DNA from: an uncultured Clostridia bacterium
GTDB taxonomy: Bacteria > Bacillota > Clostridia > UBA1212 > UBA1255
NCBI GenBank assembly: GCA_947625435.1
Contig: CANQOI010000003.1
Span: 1,591 to 65,590, forward strand
Reading direction: 5' to 3'
DNA length: 64,000 bases
Below are positions 1,411 to 7,736 of this stretch, piece by piece (position 1 is the stretch's first letter; each line of letters starts with the position of its first letter). The position numbers and the translations under genes were made by a program. The notes below the pieces were generated by a model, which did no database searches, was not told the DNA's origin, and was given only the letters and a program-made list of their open reading frames with translations.

Positions 1411-1926
1411 TTGTATTCAAATTGGTATGTTATACAGGTACTTTCTAATAACGAATACAGGCTGTGCAGCAAGATAAACAACCGCATAGACCGCAGTCTG
1501 TACGCGGAATGTTTTGTTCCGCAGGCCGAGTATGTATATAAGTCGAACGGGAACGTCCATACGCGCGTAAGGCCGCTGTTTCCCGGATACATTTTTGTCA
1601 TAACCGATACGGTGGAGGATTTCTACAATCGACTCAGATTGATAGACGGCTTCAAGCGTTTTCTGAAGGACGGGAATTTTTTTACGTCCATAACAAACGA
1701 GGAGGCCGCATTTATCGCGGGTGTGACGGACAATGAGCACAGCGCCAGCATGTCCGAGGGGTATATACTCGATTCAAAGGTTTACATCACATCGGGTCCT
1801 CTCATGGGCAAGGAGGGCGCCATCAAGAAGATCGACCGTCACAAGAGGATCGCCCTCATCGAATTTTCTTTTATGGGCAATCCCGTCCAGATAAGGATGC
1901 CGCTCGAGATCGTGAGCAAGCTTTGA
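1411..1926 (+). CDS. NusG-family transcription antitermination paralog (NGN + KOW domains; LoaP/UpxY-like)
   Basis: TTG start with GGAGTG SD 7 nt upstream. N-terminus WYVIQV... is typical of an NGN domain. C-terminal KOW-like block ITSGPLMGKEGAIKKIDRHKRIALIEF. 171 aa, divergent from the LCP gene. Confidence 0.7.
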   Translation: MYSNWYVIQVLSNNEYRLCSKINNRIDRSLYAECFVPQAEYVYKSNGNVHTRVRPLFPGYIFVITDTVEDFYNRLRLIDGFKRFLKDGNFFTSITNEEAAFIAGVTDNEHSASMSEGYILDSKVYITSGPLMGKEGAIKKIDRHKRIALIEFSFMGNPVQIRMPLEIVSKL

Positions 1927-4975: not shown

Positions 4976-5193
4976 TTCAGCTACCTCCCGTTTAGTTCTT
5001 TTATACGGGACGAATTATAGTCTTTAATACTCATATTATCAAGATTTTTATTCCGCACCGGCGGCGGCGATAAATCAGTTATGGATTTATAAACTAAATA
5101 TTGTAAAATTTTTCTGTGATTTTGCCTTTATAATTTGACAATCCGGTTATAATATGATAGGATAGCAATGTAAAAAAGAGAGGAGATCATTAT

Positions 5194-6402
5194 ATGATCT
5201 GTCAATTTTCATTCAGGAATTTTATGTCATATAAAAATGAGGCTGTATTTGATTTCCAGGCAGCAGCTATTCCCGAGTTGTCCGACAGCGTTATTACGGG
5301 GGATAAGATGTCTGATCTTCTCCCGGCCTGCGTGATATACGGCCCAAACGGAGGCGGAAAGTCTAATCTGCTCAAGGCATTTGCCTGCCTTGTTTGTACT
5401 GTTGTAAAGCCCGTTGCAGATCTCGGAAAGACAAGGGAGGCTTTAATATTGCAGCTTGGGGCAGACTGCATTCCGTTTTTGCTCGATGACAATTCGCGGG
5501 ATGAGAGCACCATGTTCCGAGTTTATTTCCGCACTGACGGCAGCGAATACCGGTACAGCTTGGCTATAAATAAAGACGAGATAGTATCCGAATCTCTTTC
5601 ATGGAGAAATATCGGAGGGAAGAAAACAGGCGTTGTCTTTATAAGAAACTTTAGTGACATAGACCTCGGAGCCAGCATTAATAAGACAAGTGTCAACAAA
5701 CAAGTTAACCCCAAGATGCCTTATCTGTCTTTCCTTGCTATCAATTATGATTTTCCGGTCATAGCAGAGGTAATATCATGGTTTGAATCATGTATTATTC
5801 AAAGTTATGCCAATACGCATGTCGACAGCAGGATATTCTTTACAGATGAGAGCAACAAAAAGTCGATCATCCGAGCTTTGAATGATCTGGATATTGATAT
5901 CGCCGATTACAGATTCAGTGATGACAAGAAGCAAATGTATACTGTCAGAACAGTAAATGAAAAATCATATGAACTGCCTTTCGAATACGAATCCGACGGC
6001 ACAAGAAAGCTGCTTACAGCTCTTCCTATCATACTGATCGCACTTCGTTACGGAAGATTTGTTGTTATAGATGAGCTGGATGCCAAACTTCATCCGAAGC
6101 TCCTTCGTTATATAATCAAGCTCTTTCACAACCCCGAGATCAATAAAAACGGAGCCCAGTTGCTTTACACCTCTCACGATCTGACTACCATGAAGAATGA
6201 TCTGTTCCGCAGAGATGAGATATGGTTTGCATGTGAAAATGATTCTCATGAGAGTGAAATATATTCATTATATGATATTCGCGACGAAAATGACAAACAC
6301 GTCAATAATACCGCCGCATACGATAAGCAGTATATAGAAGGAAGATACGGCGCCGATCCTTACCTGCAGAATATTTTAGGAGGCGAATGGAATGAGTCTT
6401 AA
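5194..6402 (+). CDS. AAA_21-type ABC/SMC-like ATPase (AbiLi/RloC/OLD-family-like), defence-associated
   Basis: P-loop VIYGPNGGGKSNLLKA near the N-terminus. Walker-B-like RFVVIDELDAKLHP and LYTSHD near the C-terminus (split ATPase layout). AT-rich gene with an AGAGGAG SD. Confidence 0.75.
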   Translation: MICQFSFRNFMSYKNEAVFDFQAAAIPELSDSVITGDKMSDLLPACVIYGPNGGGKSNLLKAFACLVCTVVKPVADLGKTREALILQLGADCIPFLLDDNSRDESTMFRVYFRTDGSEYRYSLAINKDEIVSESLSWRNIGGKKTGVVFIRNFSDIDLGASINKTSVNKQVNPKMPYLSFLAINYDFPVIAEVISWFESCIIQSYANTHVDSRIFFTDESNKKSIIRALNDLDIDIADYRFSDDKKQMYTVRTVNEKSYELPFEYESDGTRKLLTALPIILIALRYGRFVVIDELDAKLHPKLLRYIIKLFHNPEINKNGAQLLYTSHDLTTMKNDLFRRDEIWFACENDSHESEIYSLYDIRDENDKHVNNTAAYDKQYIEGRYGADPYLQNILGGEWNES

Positions 6403-7069
6403 GCCGACTAAAAAAACGGATCTTGGCAAGGACTGGCTTAAAGGCCGTGAGGCGCGGTCAACAAGAGTAAGACTCAATCCCGAATATCATCTTATTGTCA
6501 CTGAAGGAATTGATACAGAGCCGAGATATTTTGAAGCTATAAAAAACGAGATAAATAAGAATTTCAAAGACCGTATCAGCTTCGAAATAATCGGTACGGG
6601 AGATAATACAATCAGTCTTTTCAAAAAAGCTAAGTCCATCGTTGACAAAAGTCCCAATGGATTCAAGCACGTTTGGATCGTATACGATACCGACGACTTT
6701 CCACGGGAAAACATAAATCAAACTTTTGAGTTATGTAAGTCAAGCTCCACCGACGAAACAAAGTATCATGCTTTATGGTCTAATCAATGTATTGAACTCT
6801 GGTTCCTGCTTCACTTTGCCTACTATCATTCGGACATACACAGAACTGAGTATTGGCCGAAATTGACTGAACACCTAAAAAAAATCAATGCCGGAGAGTA
6901 TACAAAGGATCGCGATGATATGTATCTGATTTTGAAGCCGTTTGTTGATACTGCAATAAAAAATGCAAAAAAACTTGCATTTAGAAATCAAGGAAAAACA
7001 CCGGCAGAATCAGCCCCAGGCACTGAGGTATATCAGATCATTGAGATGCTTAAACCGTTTCTAAACTAA
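6392..7069 (+). CDS. RloB-like (AbiLii-like, TOPRIM-like) partner protein
   Basis: Overlaps the ATPase gene by 11 nt. HLIVTEGIDTEPRYFEAIK matches the RloB family signature (...IVCEGEKTEPNYF...). Acidic VWIVYDTDDF motif. 225 aa. Confidence 0.7.
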   Translation: MSLKPTKKTDLGKDWLKGREARSTRVRLNPEYHLIVTEGIDTEPRYFEAIKNEINKNFKDRISFEIIGTGDNTISLFKKAKSIVDKSPNGFKHVWIVYDTDDFPRENINQTFELCKSSSTDETKYHALWSNQCIELWFLLHFAYYHSDIHRTEYWPKLTEHLKKINAGEYTKDRDDMYLILKPFVDTAIKNAKKLAFRNQGKTPAESAPGTEVYQIIEMLKPFLN

Positions 7070-7087
7070 ATGGATAGGAGATCACAC

Positions 7088-7267
7088 ATGAATGTAACCT
7101 TTGTAAATCCCGGAGTGGATTATATGATTTCGCGGATCATGGAGTCCCAATCCGAAGGTGAGTCCGCATTTTGGTCAGACCCTTTATTTCATTTCTTTCC
7201 TAAACTCGACAAAGCCCATGTCGACAGTCTTCCTTTTTCAACGATCTGCTGTGTAATGTCACTATGA
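7088..7267 (+). CDS. small hypothetical ORF (59 aa), first of an overlapping pair after the AbiL-like genes
   Basis: The ATG at 7088 has an AGGAG SD 6 nt upstream. It ends in an ATGA overlap with the next ORF. No recognisable family. Confidence 0.3.
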   Translation: MNVTFVNPGVDYMISRIMESQSEGESAFWSDPLFHFFPKLDKAHVDSLPFSTICCVMSL

Positions 7268-7662
7268 ATCCGATCGAACCGCGTTTTCTCAAGGAGCATC
7301 GCTTTGATGTTTTTTATCTGAACAGCGAAAAAGGAGCTATCGGTGAAAGTATACATGAAATCGTGCACTTTATGTGGTTTTATGTATGGAATCAGTTGTT
7401 CGGTGACGATTACGATGAGTACGAGCGACCCTCGCTTAACCGGCTCAGTTCAATCAATCCTTACTTTCCCGGAGAAAACGGAGGATGTATATATCCCTGT
7501 TTCTTTGATATGAAGGTGAACGGTGTGCTGATACCGGATACGCTCAATACCATGTATAAGTCTCAGAGTATTGAAAATTTCATGCGCAACAGTTTTGCTT
7601 ATTGCAAGGAACACGAGACTGAAATCAGAGAGCACATGATCAAATCAAACGGAGCGGTATGA
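7264..7662 (+). CDS. hypothetical protein (132 aa) with an HExxH motif (SIHEIVHFMWF)
   Basis: Translationally coupled to the preceding ORF (ATGA). Carries an HEIVH motif and is followed by a strong hairpin. This could be the C-terminal part of a frameshifted longer gene. Confidence 0.35.
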   Translation: MNPIEPRFLKEHRFDVFYLNSEKGAIGESIHEIVHFMWFYVWNQLFGDDYDEYERPSLNRLSSINPYFPGENGGCIYPCFFDMKVNGVLIPDTLNTMYKSQSIENFMRNSFAYCKEHETEIREHMIKSNGAV

Positions 7663-7674
7663 TAAATTCCCGTT

Positions 7675-7708
7675 AAGGAACGGCATGACCGAGATCATGC
7701 CGTTCCTT
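7675..7708. terminator. hairpin terminator after the islet ORFs, convergent with nifJ
   Basis: AAGGAACGGCATGA-ccgaga-TCATGCCGTTCCTT is a perfect 14-16 bp stem. It is followed by T-rich sequence on the plus strand. Confidence 0.5.
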
Positions 7709-7736
7709 CAGAATTTTATTGATTTTTCTTTACCGT

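What the first reader, a model, noticed from the sequence alone, without database searches (positions are those of the whole stretch)
5194..7069. AbiL-like two-gene defence module (split-Walker AAA_21 ATPase + RloB/TOPRIM-like protein) in an AT-rich islet
Gene 1 (402 aa) has an N-terminal P-loop (GPNGGGKSN) and C-terminal Walker-B/H-loop-like motifs (FVVIDELDAKLHP, LYTSHD). That is the ABC/SMC-like split ATPase layout of AbiLi, RloC and OLD-family ATPases. Gene 2 (225 aa) overlaps it by 11 nt and carries HLIVTEGIDTEPRYF, matching the RloB/AbiLii family signature, plus an acidic VWIVYDTDDF motif that fits a TOPRIM-like metal site. The architecture is also close to PARIS (AriA/AriB), so the exact family is unresolved. 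The pair sits between the housekeeping genes glpQ and nifJ in a region whose composition is visibly AT-richer than the flanks, which suggests horizontal acquisition.
Basis: partly seen in the sequence, partly recalled or inferred. Interest (0 to 1): 0.6.

Follow-up and report, generated by a model that had tools for sequence, protein, structure and literature searches.

The report
AbiL-type two-gene phage defence cassette
This is an intact, apparently horizontally acquired copy of a well-known two-gene bacterial anti-phage module (AbiL/RloAB type: a Rad50-like ATPase plus an RloB/Toprim nuclease); it is an ordinary new member of a very large family, and how that family works has still not been tested directly.

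Summary

- **Family:** ORF1 matches Pfam AAA_21 (2.6e-29) and PADLOC AbiLi (1.5e-79). ORF2 matches Pfam RloB (3.7e-40) and PADLOC AbiLii (5.9e-27). ORF2 has no DUF4435/AriB match, so this is AbiL, not PARIS.
- **Folds:** the ORF1 model resembles Rad50/SMC heads and the defence ATPase PtuA, not transporter ABC domains. The ORF2 model places the conserved Glu38 after strand 1 and Asp99-x-Asp101 after strand 3, as in Toprim. Fold searches alone did not single out Toprim.
- **Pairing:** the two genes are adjacent in 24 of 26 metagenome loci and 23 of 23 viral loci. abiLi is under strong purifying selection (dN/dS about 0.05).
- **Mobility:** a self-contained cassette (5085-7069: conserved promoter plus both genes) recurs at 70-80% nt identity in integrative, conjugative and viral elements. 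Here it sits in the lowest-GC stretch of the window, fused to a decayed unrelated gene.
- **Mechanism (inferred):** the ATPase sensor holds the nuclease inactive; phage infection releases it, it probably cleaves tRNA, and the infection aborts.

New member of a known kind; low interest.

The parts
5085..5193 (+). Conserved cassette leader. It holds a sigma-A/sigma-70-type promoter (-35 TTGACA 5135-5140; extended -10 TGaTAGGAT 5155-5163) and the abiLi Shine-Dalgarno GAGGAG at 5180-5185.
   Evidence: blastn homology to the mobile-element copies starts at 5085. The promoter hexamers and spacing are conserved in four independent contexts. The promoter scan scores 10/12 with TG. Promoter function is inferred, not shown.
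5194..6402 (+). abiLi: 402-aa Rad50/SMC-type ABC ATPase (AAA_21). Motifs: Walker A G50-K56, signature-like E266-S-D-G-T270, Walker B D293-E294, D-loop D296, H-loop H328. Inferred to be the sensor and antitoxin.
   Evidence: Pfam AAA_21 2.6e-29 and PADLOC AbiLi 1.5e-79. The motifs are invariant or nearly so in 41 homologues. Foldseek gives Rad50 1.1e-8 plus PtuA and SMC heads. dN/dS is 0.05 against L003.
6392..7069 (+). abiLii: 225-aa RloB-family (Toprim-superfamily) protein, the inferred nuclease effector and toxin. It overlaps abiLi by 11 nt; its Shine-Dalgarno AGGAGG lies at 6378-6383.
   Evidence: Pfam RloB 3.7e-40 and PADLOC AbiLii 5.9e-27. G39, T42, E43, D99, D101, N131, E135 and W137 are invariant, and E38 is at least 90% conserved, across 29 family members at 27-54% identity. 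In the AlphaFold model (pLDDT 85.9), E38 follows strand 1 and D99xD101 follows strand 3.
5086..5099 (+). Left copy of a 14-nt imperfect direct repeat (TTTATAAACTAAAT), at the left homology breakpoint of the cassette.
   Evidence: Only 0.5% of random 60-nt windows match the leader this well. Its significance is uncertain.
7058..7071 (+). Right copy of the direct repeat (TTTCTAAACTAAAT). It overlaps the last codons and the stop codon of abiLii, at the right homology breakpoint.
7073..7669 (+). Not part of the defence system. This is a degraded copy of an unrelated two-ORF module that carries an HExxH motif (ORF3 7088-7267, 59 aa; ORF4 7264-7662, 132 aa). It is now probably co-transcribed with abiL.
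   Evidence: The stretch is 89% and 82% nt identical to L158 but has a 158-nt frameshifting deletion and a deletion of about 45 nt (protein comparison). Homologues elsewhere are never next to AbiL. No Pfam, PADLOC or NCBIfam match.
7675..7708 (.). Perfect 14-bp hairpin between ORF4 and the 3' end of nifJ. It is the probable terminator for the abiL transcript and for convergent nifJ.
   Evidence: Inverted repeat I3 is 100% complementary. The RNA fold gives -25.1 kcal/mol with z = -6.2. The cassette's own terminator, present in L003, L010, L102 and L104, is missing here.

Best explanation
Window 5085-7069 is an intact AbiL-type (RloA/RloB-type) two-gene anti-phage module.

**What is shown:**
- Gene 1 is a Rad50/SMC-like ABC ATPase of the AAA_21 family with all nucleotide-binding motifs.
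- Gene 2 is an RloB-family protein with the conserved acidic residues of a Toprim metal site (E38; D99-x-D101).
- The two genes are translationally coupled and almost always adjacent across the family.
- Both show far fewer amino-acid-changing than silent substitutions (dN/dS about 0.05 for abiLi).
- The pair travels as a roughly 2-kb cassette with its own promoter between integrative elements, conjugative elements, prophages and chromosomes.

**What is inferred** by analogy with the solved relatives PARIS (AriA/AriB) and P2 OLD, and from the toxin-antitoxin behaviour of an RloB/AAA pair from Clostridium algidicarnis:
- In uninfected cells an AbiLi oligomer binds AbiLii and keeps it inactive.
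- A phage-made protein or replication product is sensed by the ATPase, and ATP binding or hydrolysis releases or activates the nuclease.
- The nuclease cuts host nucleic acid, most probably tRNA. That stops translation and aborts the infection.

The trigger and the substrate are unknown.
For: **Family assignment:**
- Pfam AAA_21 and RloB.
- PADLOC AbiLi 1.5e-79 and AbiLii 5.9e-27. These scores equal or exceed those of a lactococcal prophage pair annotated 'abortive phage resistance protein'. The window proteins align with that pair end to end for the ATPase (27% identity) and over residues 23-164 for RloB (32% identity).

**Motifs and folds:**
- ATPase motifs are conserved, and the fold neighbours are Rad50, SMC and PtuA.
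- RloB acidic residues are invariant at 27-54% identity and sit after strand 1 and strand 3 of a four-unit beta-alpha core.
- hhalign places RloB residues 29-71 on the EGxTE motif inside the OLD-like Toprim domain of P2 Old.

**Pairing and selection:**
- The pair is conserved in 24 of 26 metagenome loci and 23 of 23 viral loci.
- dN/dS is 0.05 for abiLi. For abiLii pN is 0.095 with synonymous sites saturated.

**Mobility:** the cassette is 70-80% nt identical in integrase/recombinase elements and in a T4SS element, occurs on viral contigs, and lies in the lowest-GC stretch of the window.

**Literature:**
- RloB is a Toprim-superfamily member with Glu after beta1 and DxD after beta3 (PMC12065111).
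- AbiL is grouped with PARIS as ABC ATPase plus Toprim (PMC11464382, PMC13064643).
- An RloB-like toxin is neutralised by its AAA partner (PMC10440598).
- AriB and P2 OLD are tRNases (PMC12409363; bioRxiv 10.64898/2026.07.10.737580).
Against: - No experiment exists for this locus or its close relatives, and the mechanism of AbiL itself has never been determined (PMC13064643).
- The RloB and AriB predicted structures superimpose poorly according to PMC13064643, so the PARIS analogy may not extend to assembly or substrate.
- GajA, another ABC+Toprim relative, cuts DNA rather than tRNA.
- The cassette here has lost its own terminator and abuts a decayed gene, so altered expression cannot be excluded.
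Confidence: 0.75

Rival explanations
1. Same module, different effector chemistry. AbiLii would be a DNA nickase or DNase, as GajA of Gabija is, that degrades phage (or host) DNA rather than tRNA.
For: Toprim domains act on DNA in topoisomerases, primases and GajA, which is described as a sequence-specific DNA endonuclease in PMC10440598. Nothing discriminates between RNA and DNA substrates. RloB superimposes poorly on AriB (PMC13064643).
Against: The two ABC+Toprim relatives whose in vivo targets were examined most directly, AriB and P2 OLD, both cleave tRNA (PMC12409363; bioRxiv 10.64898/2026.07.10.737580). Lactococcal AbiL is tabulated as acting after transcription (PMC13064643).
Confidence: 0.2
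2. The pair is primarily a toxin-antitoxin addiction module that stabilises the mobile elements carrying it, with no significant anti-phage role in this host.
For: The closest copies sit inside integrative and conjugative elements. An RloB/AAA pair behaves as a toxin-antitoxin pair in E. coli (PMC10440598).
Against: In this window the cassette is not inside any recognisable mobile element: there is no integrase, recombinase or transfer gene between glpQ and nifJ. Even so, both genes remain intact with their key motifs conserved, and abiLi shows strong purifying selection. The founding member, AbiL, was defined by phage resistance (Deng 1999, cited in PMC13064643). The two roles are not mutually exclusive.
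Confidence: 0.12
3. It is a PARIS (AriA/AriB) system.
For: It has the same two-gene ABC ATPase plus Toprim-superfamily layout. Gene 1 hits a PADLOC AriA model at 1.8e-34.
Against: That AriA hit covers positions 3-302 of a 304-position model over the same residues as the Pfam AAA_21 hit, and it scores 118 bits against 265 for AbiLi. Gene 2 has no DUF4435 or AriB match at E <= 0.1 and a strong RloB match instead.
Confidence: 0.03
4. It is an RloA/RloB accessory pair of a type I restriction-modification locus, acting with Hsd subunits.
For: Pfam RloB is named after the R-linked ORFs of Campylobacter hsd loci (PMC10440598, PMC13064643).
Against: No hsdR, hsdM or hsdS gene lies near it. The neighbours are glpQ, dpaAB, PFOR and transketolase. 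Most related loci also lack adjacent hsd genes.
Confidence: 0.03
5. It is a housekeeping repair ATPase/nuclease pair or a transporter ABC protein (a core gene pair, not an islet).
For: There are weak SMC_N, RecF and SbcC-like P-loop matches.
Against: All NCBIfam hits are far below their cut-offs. The nearest related genome keeps dpaA-dpaB-glpQ but has no such pair within 10 kb. The pair lies in the lowest-GC stretch of the window, and its homologues are on mobile and viral elements.
Confidence: 0.01

Closest known systems
AbiL (AbiLi/AbiLii) of Lactococcus lactis plasmid pND861, and the RloA/RloB pairs of Campylobacter
   Same: Two overlapping genes in the same order: an AAA_21 Rad50-like ATPase followed by an RloB-family protein. 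Both PADLOC AbiL models match strongly. The ATPase aligns over its full length and RloB over residues 23-164 with a lactococcal prophage AbiL-like pair. The pair is carried on mobile elements.
   Different: Identity to the lactococcal proteins is only about 27-32%. The host is an uncultured gut Clostridia bacterium. The location is chromosomal, between housekeeping genes, rather than on a plasmid or in an hsd locus. The phenotype is untested.
PARIS (AriA/AriB)
   Same: An ABC ATPase sensor plus a separate Toprim-superfamily effector in a two-gene operon. It is the likely model for sequestration and release of the nuclease, and it is often carried on mobile elements.
   Different: The effector is RloB (PF13707), not DUF4435 (PF14491), with no detectable sequence similarity. 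The ATPase is about 100 aa shorter than AriA (53-55 kDa according to PMC11464382). No trigger of the Ocr type is known.
OLD-family nucleases (P2 Old; GajA of Gabija)
   Different: In OLD and GajA the ATPase and Toprim domains are fused in one polypeptide, and GajA works with a UvrD-like helicase. Here they are two proteins with no helicase.
Septu / retron-associated PtuA-PtuB
   Same: The ATPase fold is among the best structural matches (PtuA), and the logic of an ABC ATPase paired with a nuclease is the same.
   Different: The partner nuclease there is HNH (PtuB), not RloB/Toprim. PADLOC PtuA hits are weak, at 1e-6 to 1e-8.

Membership tests
AbiL (PADLOC/DefenseFinder-type definition) | AbiLi-type AAA_21 ATPase | tested here: met
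   PADLOC PDLC02335 AbiLi 1.5e-79 (265 bits); Pfam AAA_21 2.6e-29.
AbiL (PADLOC/DefenseFinder-type definition) | AbiLii / RloB-family partner | tested here: met
   PADLOC PDLC02337 AbiLii 5.9e-27; Pfam RloB 3.7e-40, covering model positions 2-195 of 195.
AbiL (PADLOC/DefenseFinder-type definition) | The two genes are adjacent, on the same strand, with the ATPase first | tested here: met
   11-nt overlap on the + strand. The same order is seen in 24 of 26 metagenome loci and 23 of 23 viral loci.
AbiL (PADLOC/DefenseFinder-type definition) | Direct similarity to lactococcal AbiL proteins | tested here: inconclusive
   The window proteins align with the L. cremoris prophage proPhi7 pair annotated 'abortive phage resistance protein' (27% identity, E 5e-27; 32% identity, E 9e-15). 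That pair itself scores as AbiLi/AbiLii.
AbiL (PADLOC/DefenseFinder-type definition) | Abortive-infection phage resistance that requires both genes | not testable with these tools
   Needs cloning and plaque assays.
Toprim superfamily (for gene 2) | Conserved Glu directly after strand beta1 and a DxD motif after strand beta3 | tested here: met
   In the model, beta1 is 31-37 followed by E38, and beta3 is 93-99 ending in D99-T-D101. D99 and D101 are invariant and E38 is at least 90% conserved at 27-54% identity. The criterion is taken from PMC12065111.
Toprim superfamily (for gene 2) | Three-layer alpha/beta fold with sheet order 2-1-3-4, recognisably similar to solved Toprim domains | tested here: inconclusive
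PARIS | AriB effector with a DUF4435 domain | tested here: not met
   No DUF4435 or AriB match at E <= 0.1 in Pfam or PADLOC.
PARIS | AriA-type AAA_15/21 ABC ATPase | tested here: inconclusive
   The hit to PADLOC AriA model PDLC02980 (1.8e-34) spans positions 3-302 of a 304-position model over residues 47-332, the same ranges as the Pfam AAA_21 hit, so I read it as generic. AbiLi scores more than twice as high.
OLD-family nuclease (classes 1-3) | ATPase and Toprim domains in one polypeptide | tested here: not met
   There are two separate ORFs. P2 Old, by contrast, has AAA_15/21 plus OLD-like_TOPRIM in a single 586-aa protein.
RloAB of type I R-M loci | Embedded in or adjacent to hsdR/M/S genes | tested here: not met
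   The neighbours within 8 kb are NusG-like, DpaA, DpaB, GDPD, PFOR and transketolase genes.
Transport-type ABC ATPase | ABC_tran (PF00005) nucleotide-binding domain and a permease partner | tested here: not met
   No ABC_tran hit. NCBIfam transporter hits score 12-17 bits against cut-offs of 190-430. The structural neighbours are Rad50, SMC and PtuA.
Septu | PtuA ATPase with an HNH nuclease PtuB | tested here: not met
   PtuA models hit only weakly, and the partner is RloB, not HNH.

The most novel reading that the evidence does not exclude
The roughly 2-kb AbiL unit (conserved promoter plus two genes) may be a discrete, independently exchangeable 'defence cassette' with defined ends.

Its homology to copies in an integrative element, a conjugative element and this chromosome starts and stops at the same points. 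In this window, both breakpoints carry a 13-of-14-nt direct repeat (5086-5099 and 7058-7071). The left copy has diverged from the family consensus towards the right copy. A weaker repeat (11 of 12) flanks the copy in the conjugative element L010.

If real, this would be a scar of a specific end-to-end recombination route, through a circular or tandem intermediate or by microhomology-mediated capture, for moving small defence operons between replicons. Separately, the RloB clade could have a trigger or substrate unlike PARIS or OLD.
Probability: 0.07. Interest if true: 0.5.

Novelty: new member of a known kind. Interest (0 to 1): 0.2.

Why it matters
On its own this adds one more AbiL/RloAB pair to a family with thousands of members, so little changes.

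It has modest value in three ways:
- It documents that gut Clostridia carry a compact, promoter-containing AbiL cassette that recurs on integrative, conjugative and viral elements and has landed between core metabolic genes.
- It gives precise cassette boundaries and a list of invariant residues (K56, D293/E294, H328; E38, E43, D99, D101, N131, E135). These would guide mutagenesis.
- The mechanism of AbiL is still untested, although its relatives PARIS and OLD were recently shown to be tRNases. Any well-behaved, small representative is therefore a reasonable experimental entry point.

Tried and rejected
- **Sequence searches of the PDB.** Neither protein, nor an RloB profile, found a solved relative.
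- **hhalign of the RloB profile against P2 Old.** It aligned the correct motif but without significance. I had no searches left to build a proper OLD/AriB profile.
- **NCBIfam.** No family reached its cut-off.
- **Empty-site test.**
  - The only close genome (GlpQ 74% identical) keeps dpaA-dpaB-glpQ, but it has different genes upstream of glpQ and no nifJ within 10 kb, so the junction cannot be compared.
  - Same-species metagenome contigs (L001, L002, L011, L012) are 99.8-100% identical to the window. L011 and L012 cross the glpQ-to-cassette junction and L001 crosses the junction with nifJ. No empty site was seen.
- **ORF3/ORF4 as third and fourth components.** Rejected. They are a decayed copy of an unrelated module that is never linked to AbiL elsewhere.
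- **Terminal direct repeats as a general feature of the cassette.** Not supported. Of 21 loci, only the window (0.5% of null windows match as well) and L010 (3.5%) stand out.
- **Naming the organism.** The cluster look-up gave no names.
Full report
**Observation**

Every quoted peptide motif is present in the translations. Each gene has a good Shine-Dalgarno sequence 8 nt upstream of its ATG.

The left neighbour is a GDPD-family glycerophosphodiester phosphodiesterase. The right neighbour is an 1182-aa pyruvate:ferredoxin oxidoreductase. Further out lie dipicolinate synthase A/B, a NusG paralogue and a split transketolase. The setting is therefore housekeeping genes of a spore-forming Clostridia bacterium.

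The stretch 4976-7736 has GC 0.403 against a window mean of 0.475. It is the lowest of all 2.76-kb windows in the 64 kb.

**Family assignment**

| Gene | Pfam | PADLOC | Other |
|---|---|---|---|
| 1 | AAA_21 (2.6e-29); weaker AAA_15, SMC_N, AAA_23 | AbiLi, 1.5e-79, 265 bits | AriA model hit, 118 bits |
| 2 | RloB (3.7e-40, whole model) | AbiLii, 5.9e-27 | no DUF4435/AriB match |

- The next-best PADLOC hit of gene 1, an AriA model, covers positions 3-302 of a 304-position model over residues 47-332. Those are the same ranges as its Pfam AAA_21 hit, so I read it as generic.
- NCBIfam gives nothing near any cut-off, and the few transporter and RecF hits are P-loop noise.
- A pair annotated 'abortive phage resistance protein' in Lactococcus prophage proPhi7 scores no better on the same AbiL models. 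It aligns with the window proteins over the whole ATPase (27% identity, E 5e-27) and over residues 23-164 of RloB (32% identity, E 9e-15).

**Catalytic equipment and folds**

*ATPase.* Across 41 ATPase homologues these motifs are invariant or nearly so: Walker A (G50-P-N-G-G-G-K56), the signature-like E266-S-D-G-T270, Walker B D293-E294, D296 and H328. The AlphaFold model (pLDDT 73; the C-terminal 70 residues are poorly modelled) finds Rad50 heads first with Foldseek (1.1e-8). Retron and Septu PtuA and SMC heads follow. This is the Rad50/SMC-type defence ATPase class, not a transporter nucleotide-binding domain.

*RloB.* An exhaustive search found 3,464 clusters at 50% identity. In 29 members that are 27-54% identical to the query, G39, T42, E43, Y46, D99, D101, N131, E135 and W137 are invariant, and E38 is at least 90% conserved. 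The model (pLDDT 85.9) has four beta-alpha units plus a helical C-terminal part. E38 follows strand 1 directly, and D99-x-D101 ends strand 3. That is the arrangement PMC12065111 gives as defining Toprim domains, and that paper assigns RloB to the superfamily.

My own structure searches were only weakly confirmatory:
- Foldseek finds nothing significant.
- hhalign against P2 Old is not significant, although it aligns RloB 29-71 with the EGxTE motif inside Old's Pfam OLD-like Toprim domain.

**The pair is a functional unit under selection**

In loci recovered through the ATPase, an RloB gene follows immediately in 24 of 26 cases where the contig has room. The gap ranges from an overlap to 4 nt, and this holds down to 27% ATPase identity. 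In loci recovered through RloB on viral contigs, the ATPase precedes it in 23 of 23.

Against the closest copy (L003), abiLi has dN/dS of about 0.05. abiLii has pN 0.095 with saturated synonymous sites. Both window genes are intact.

**Anatomy and origin of the islet**

blastn shows that window 5085-7069 is about 80% identical to the pair in elements carrying tyrosine and serine recombinases (L003-L009). It is about 70% identical to the pair sitting between T4SS genes of a conjugative element (L010).

- Homology begins 109 nt upstream of the abiLi ATG. That leader contains a promoter (TTGACA-17-TAGGAT with an extended TG) conserved in all four contexts.
- Homology ends exactly at the abiLii stop codon. 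In the other contexts a hairpin terminator follows the stop; here it is missing.
- Instead, 3 nt after the stop begins a stretch (7073-7669) that is 82-89% identical to an unrelated two-ORF module with an HExxH motif (L158). In the window this module carries a 158-nt frameshifting deletion and a second deletion of about 45 nt.
- Elsewhere that module is never next to AbiL, so it is not a component of the system.
- The composite transcript probably ends at a perfect 14-bp hairpin, 7675-7708.
- No integrase, transposase or tRNA gene lies between glpQ and nifJ.

The nearest genome available (a human-gut Clostridia MAG, GlpQ 74% and DpaB 92% identical) keeps dpaA-dpaB-glpQ. It has other genes beyond glpQ and no AbiL pair within 10 kb. 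Same-species metagenome contigs reproduce the window's arrangement.

Horizontal acquisition is thus well supported by composition and by the mobile-element contexts of the relatives. A direct empty site was not found.

**Mechanism**

*Shown here:* the domain identities, conserved catalytic residues, gene coupling, selection and mobility.

*Inferred from relatives:*
- In PARIS, an AriA hexamer sequesters AriB until a phage protein triggers ATP-dependent release. AriB then cleaves tRNA (PMC11464382, PMC12409363).
- P2 OLD is likewise an abortive tRNase (bioRxiv 10.64898/2026.07.10.737580).
- An RloB-like protein from Clostridium algidicarnis is toxic in E. coli and is neutralised by its AAA partner (PMC10440598).
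- Lactococcal AbiL is tabulated as acting after transcription (PMC13064643).

I therefore propose that AbiLi is the sensor and antitoxin, and that AbiLii is a metal-dependent Toprim nuclease released on infection. It most likely cuts tRNA, with translation arrest and abortive infection as the outcome. A DNA-nicking effector, as in GajA, is the main mechanistic rival.

My confidence is about 0.9 that this is an AbiL-family defence or toxin-antitoxin module. It is about 0.5 for the sequestration-release tRNase mechanism.

**Comparison and novelty**

The locus meets every sequence-level criterion for AbiL. It fails the defining criterion for each of these:
- PARIS (no DUF4435);
- fused OLD nucleases;
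- hsd-linked RloAB;
- Septu;
- transport ABC proteins.

AbiL has been known since 1999, is in PADLOC and DefenseFinder, and has thousands of relatives. This is therefore a new member of a known kind, and a specialist would not be surprised.

The only mildly unusual points are:
- the sharply bounded cassette;
- the 14-nt direct repeat at both breakpoints, which did not generalise to other loci;
- the fusion to a decaying gene.

Interest is low (0.2).

Noticed in passing
window 5086-5099 and 7058-7071: A 13-of-14-nt direct repeat (TTTATAAACTAAAT / TTTCTAAACTAAAT) sits exactly at the two points where homology to AbiL cassettes in other elements starts and stops. The left copy differs from the family consensus (TATAAATCGAA) in the direction of the right copy. 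Across 21 loci only the window (null frequency 0.5%) and L010 (3.5%) show such a repeat. It is either a recombination scar or chance.
   Followed up: partly
window 7073-7669 (ORF3 7088-7267, ORF4 7264-7662): A degraded copy of an uncharacterised family with an HExxH motif (HEIVH). It has no Pfam, PADLOC or NCBIfam match. In other genomes the family appears either as one protein of about 213 aa (P0288) or as two overlapping ORFs (76+183, 67+149 or 107+161 aa). The recurrent split at about the same place in independent genomes is unexplained; it could be a natural bicistron or a programmed frameshift.
   Followed up: partly
L003 12157-19170 and L008 12059-16306 (loci with the 89%-identical AbiLi): In the integrase/serine-recombinase elements that carry the closest AbiL copies, the pair is followed by a Fic protein (in L003; in L008 a Fic gene lies upstream instead), then in both by two metallophosphatases and an RNA ligase (PF09414/PF21189). 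A phosphatase plus an RNA ligase looks like an RNA heal-and-seal (tRNA repair) set. That is suggestive, given that relatives of AbiL are tRNases, but nothing was tested.
   Followed up: no
window 7069-7088 compared with L003 11877-11950, L010 9852-9930, L104 2044-2110: The AbiL cassette normally ends with its own hairpin-plus-T-run terminator. In the window this is deleted, and the operon runs into the neighbouring pseudogene and a hairpin shared with convergent nifJ (7675-7708).
   Followed up: yes
window 5194-7069 versus L003: Against the same partner locus, abiLi has a synonymous difference of 0.57 while abiLii has 0.82 (saturated). The two genes of the pair may therefore have different histories, for example module shuffling between ATPase and nuclease lineages.
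   Followed up: no
L121 and L131 (ATPase 27% identical): These are the only two loci where the AbiLi-like ATPase is not followed by an RloB gene although the contig continues. They may pair the ATPase with a different effector.
   Followed up: no
window 1411-1926: A stand-alone NusG/KOW paralogue (171 aa) lies upstream of the dpaA-dpaB genes. It may be a specialised antiterminator of the LoaP/UpxY type.
   Followed up: no
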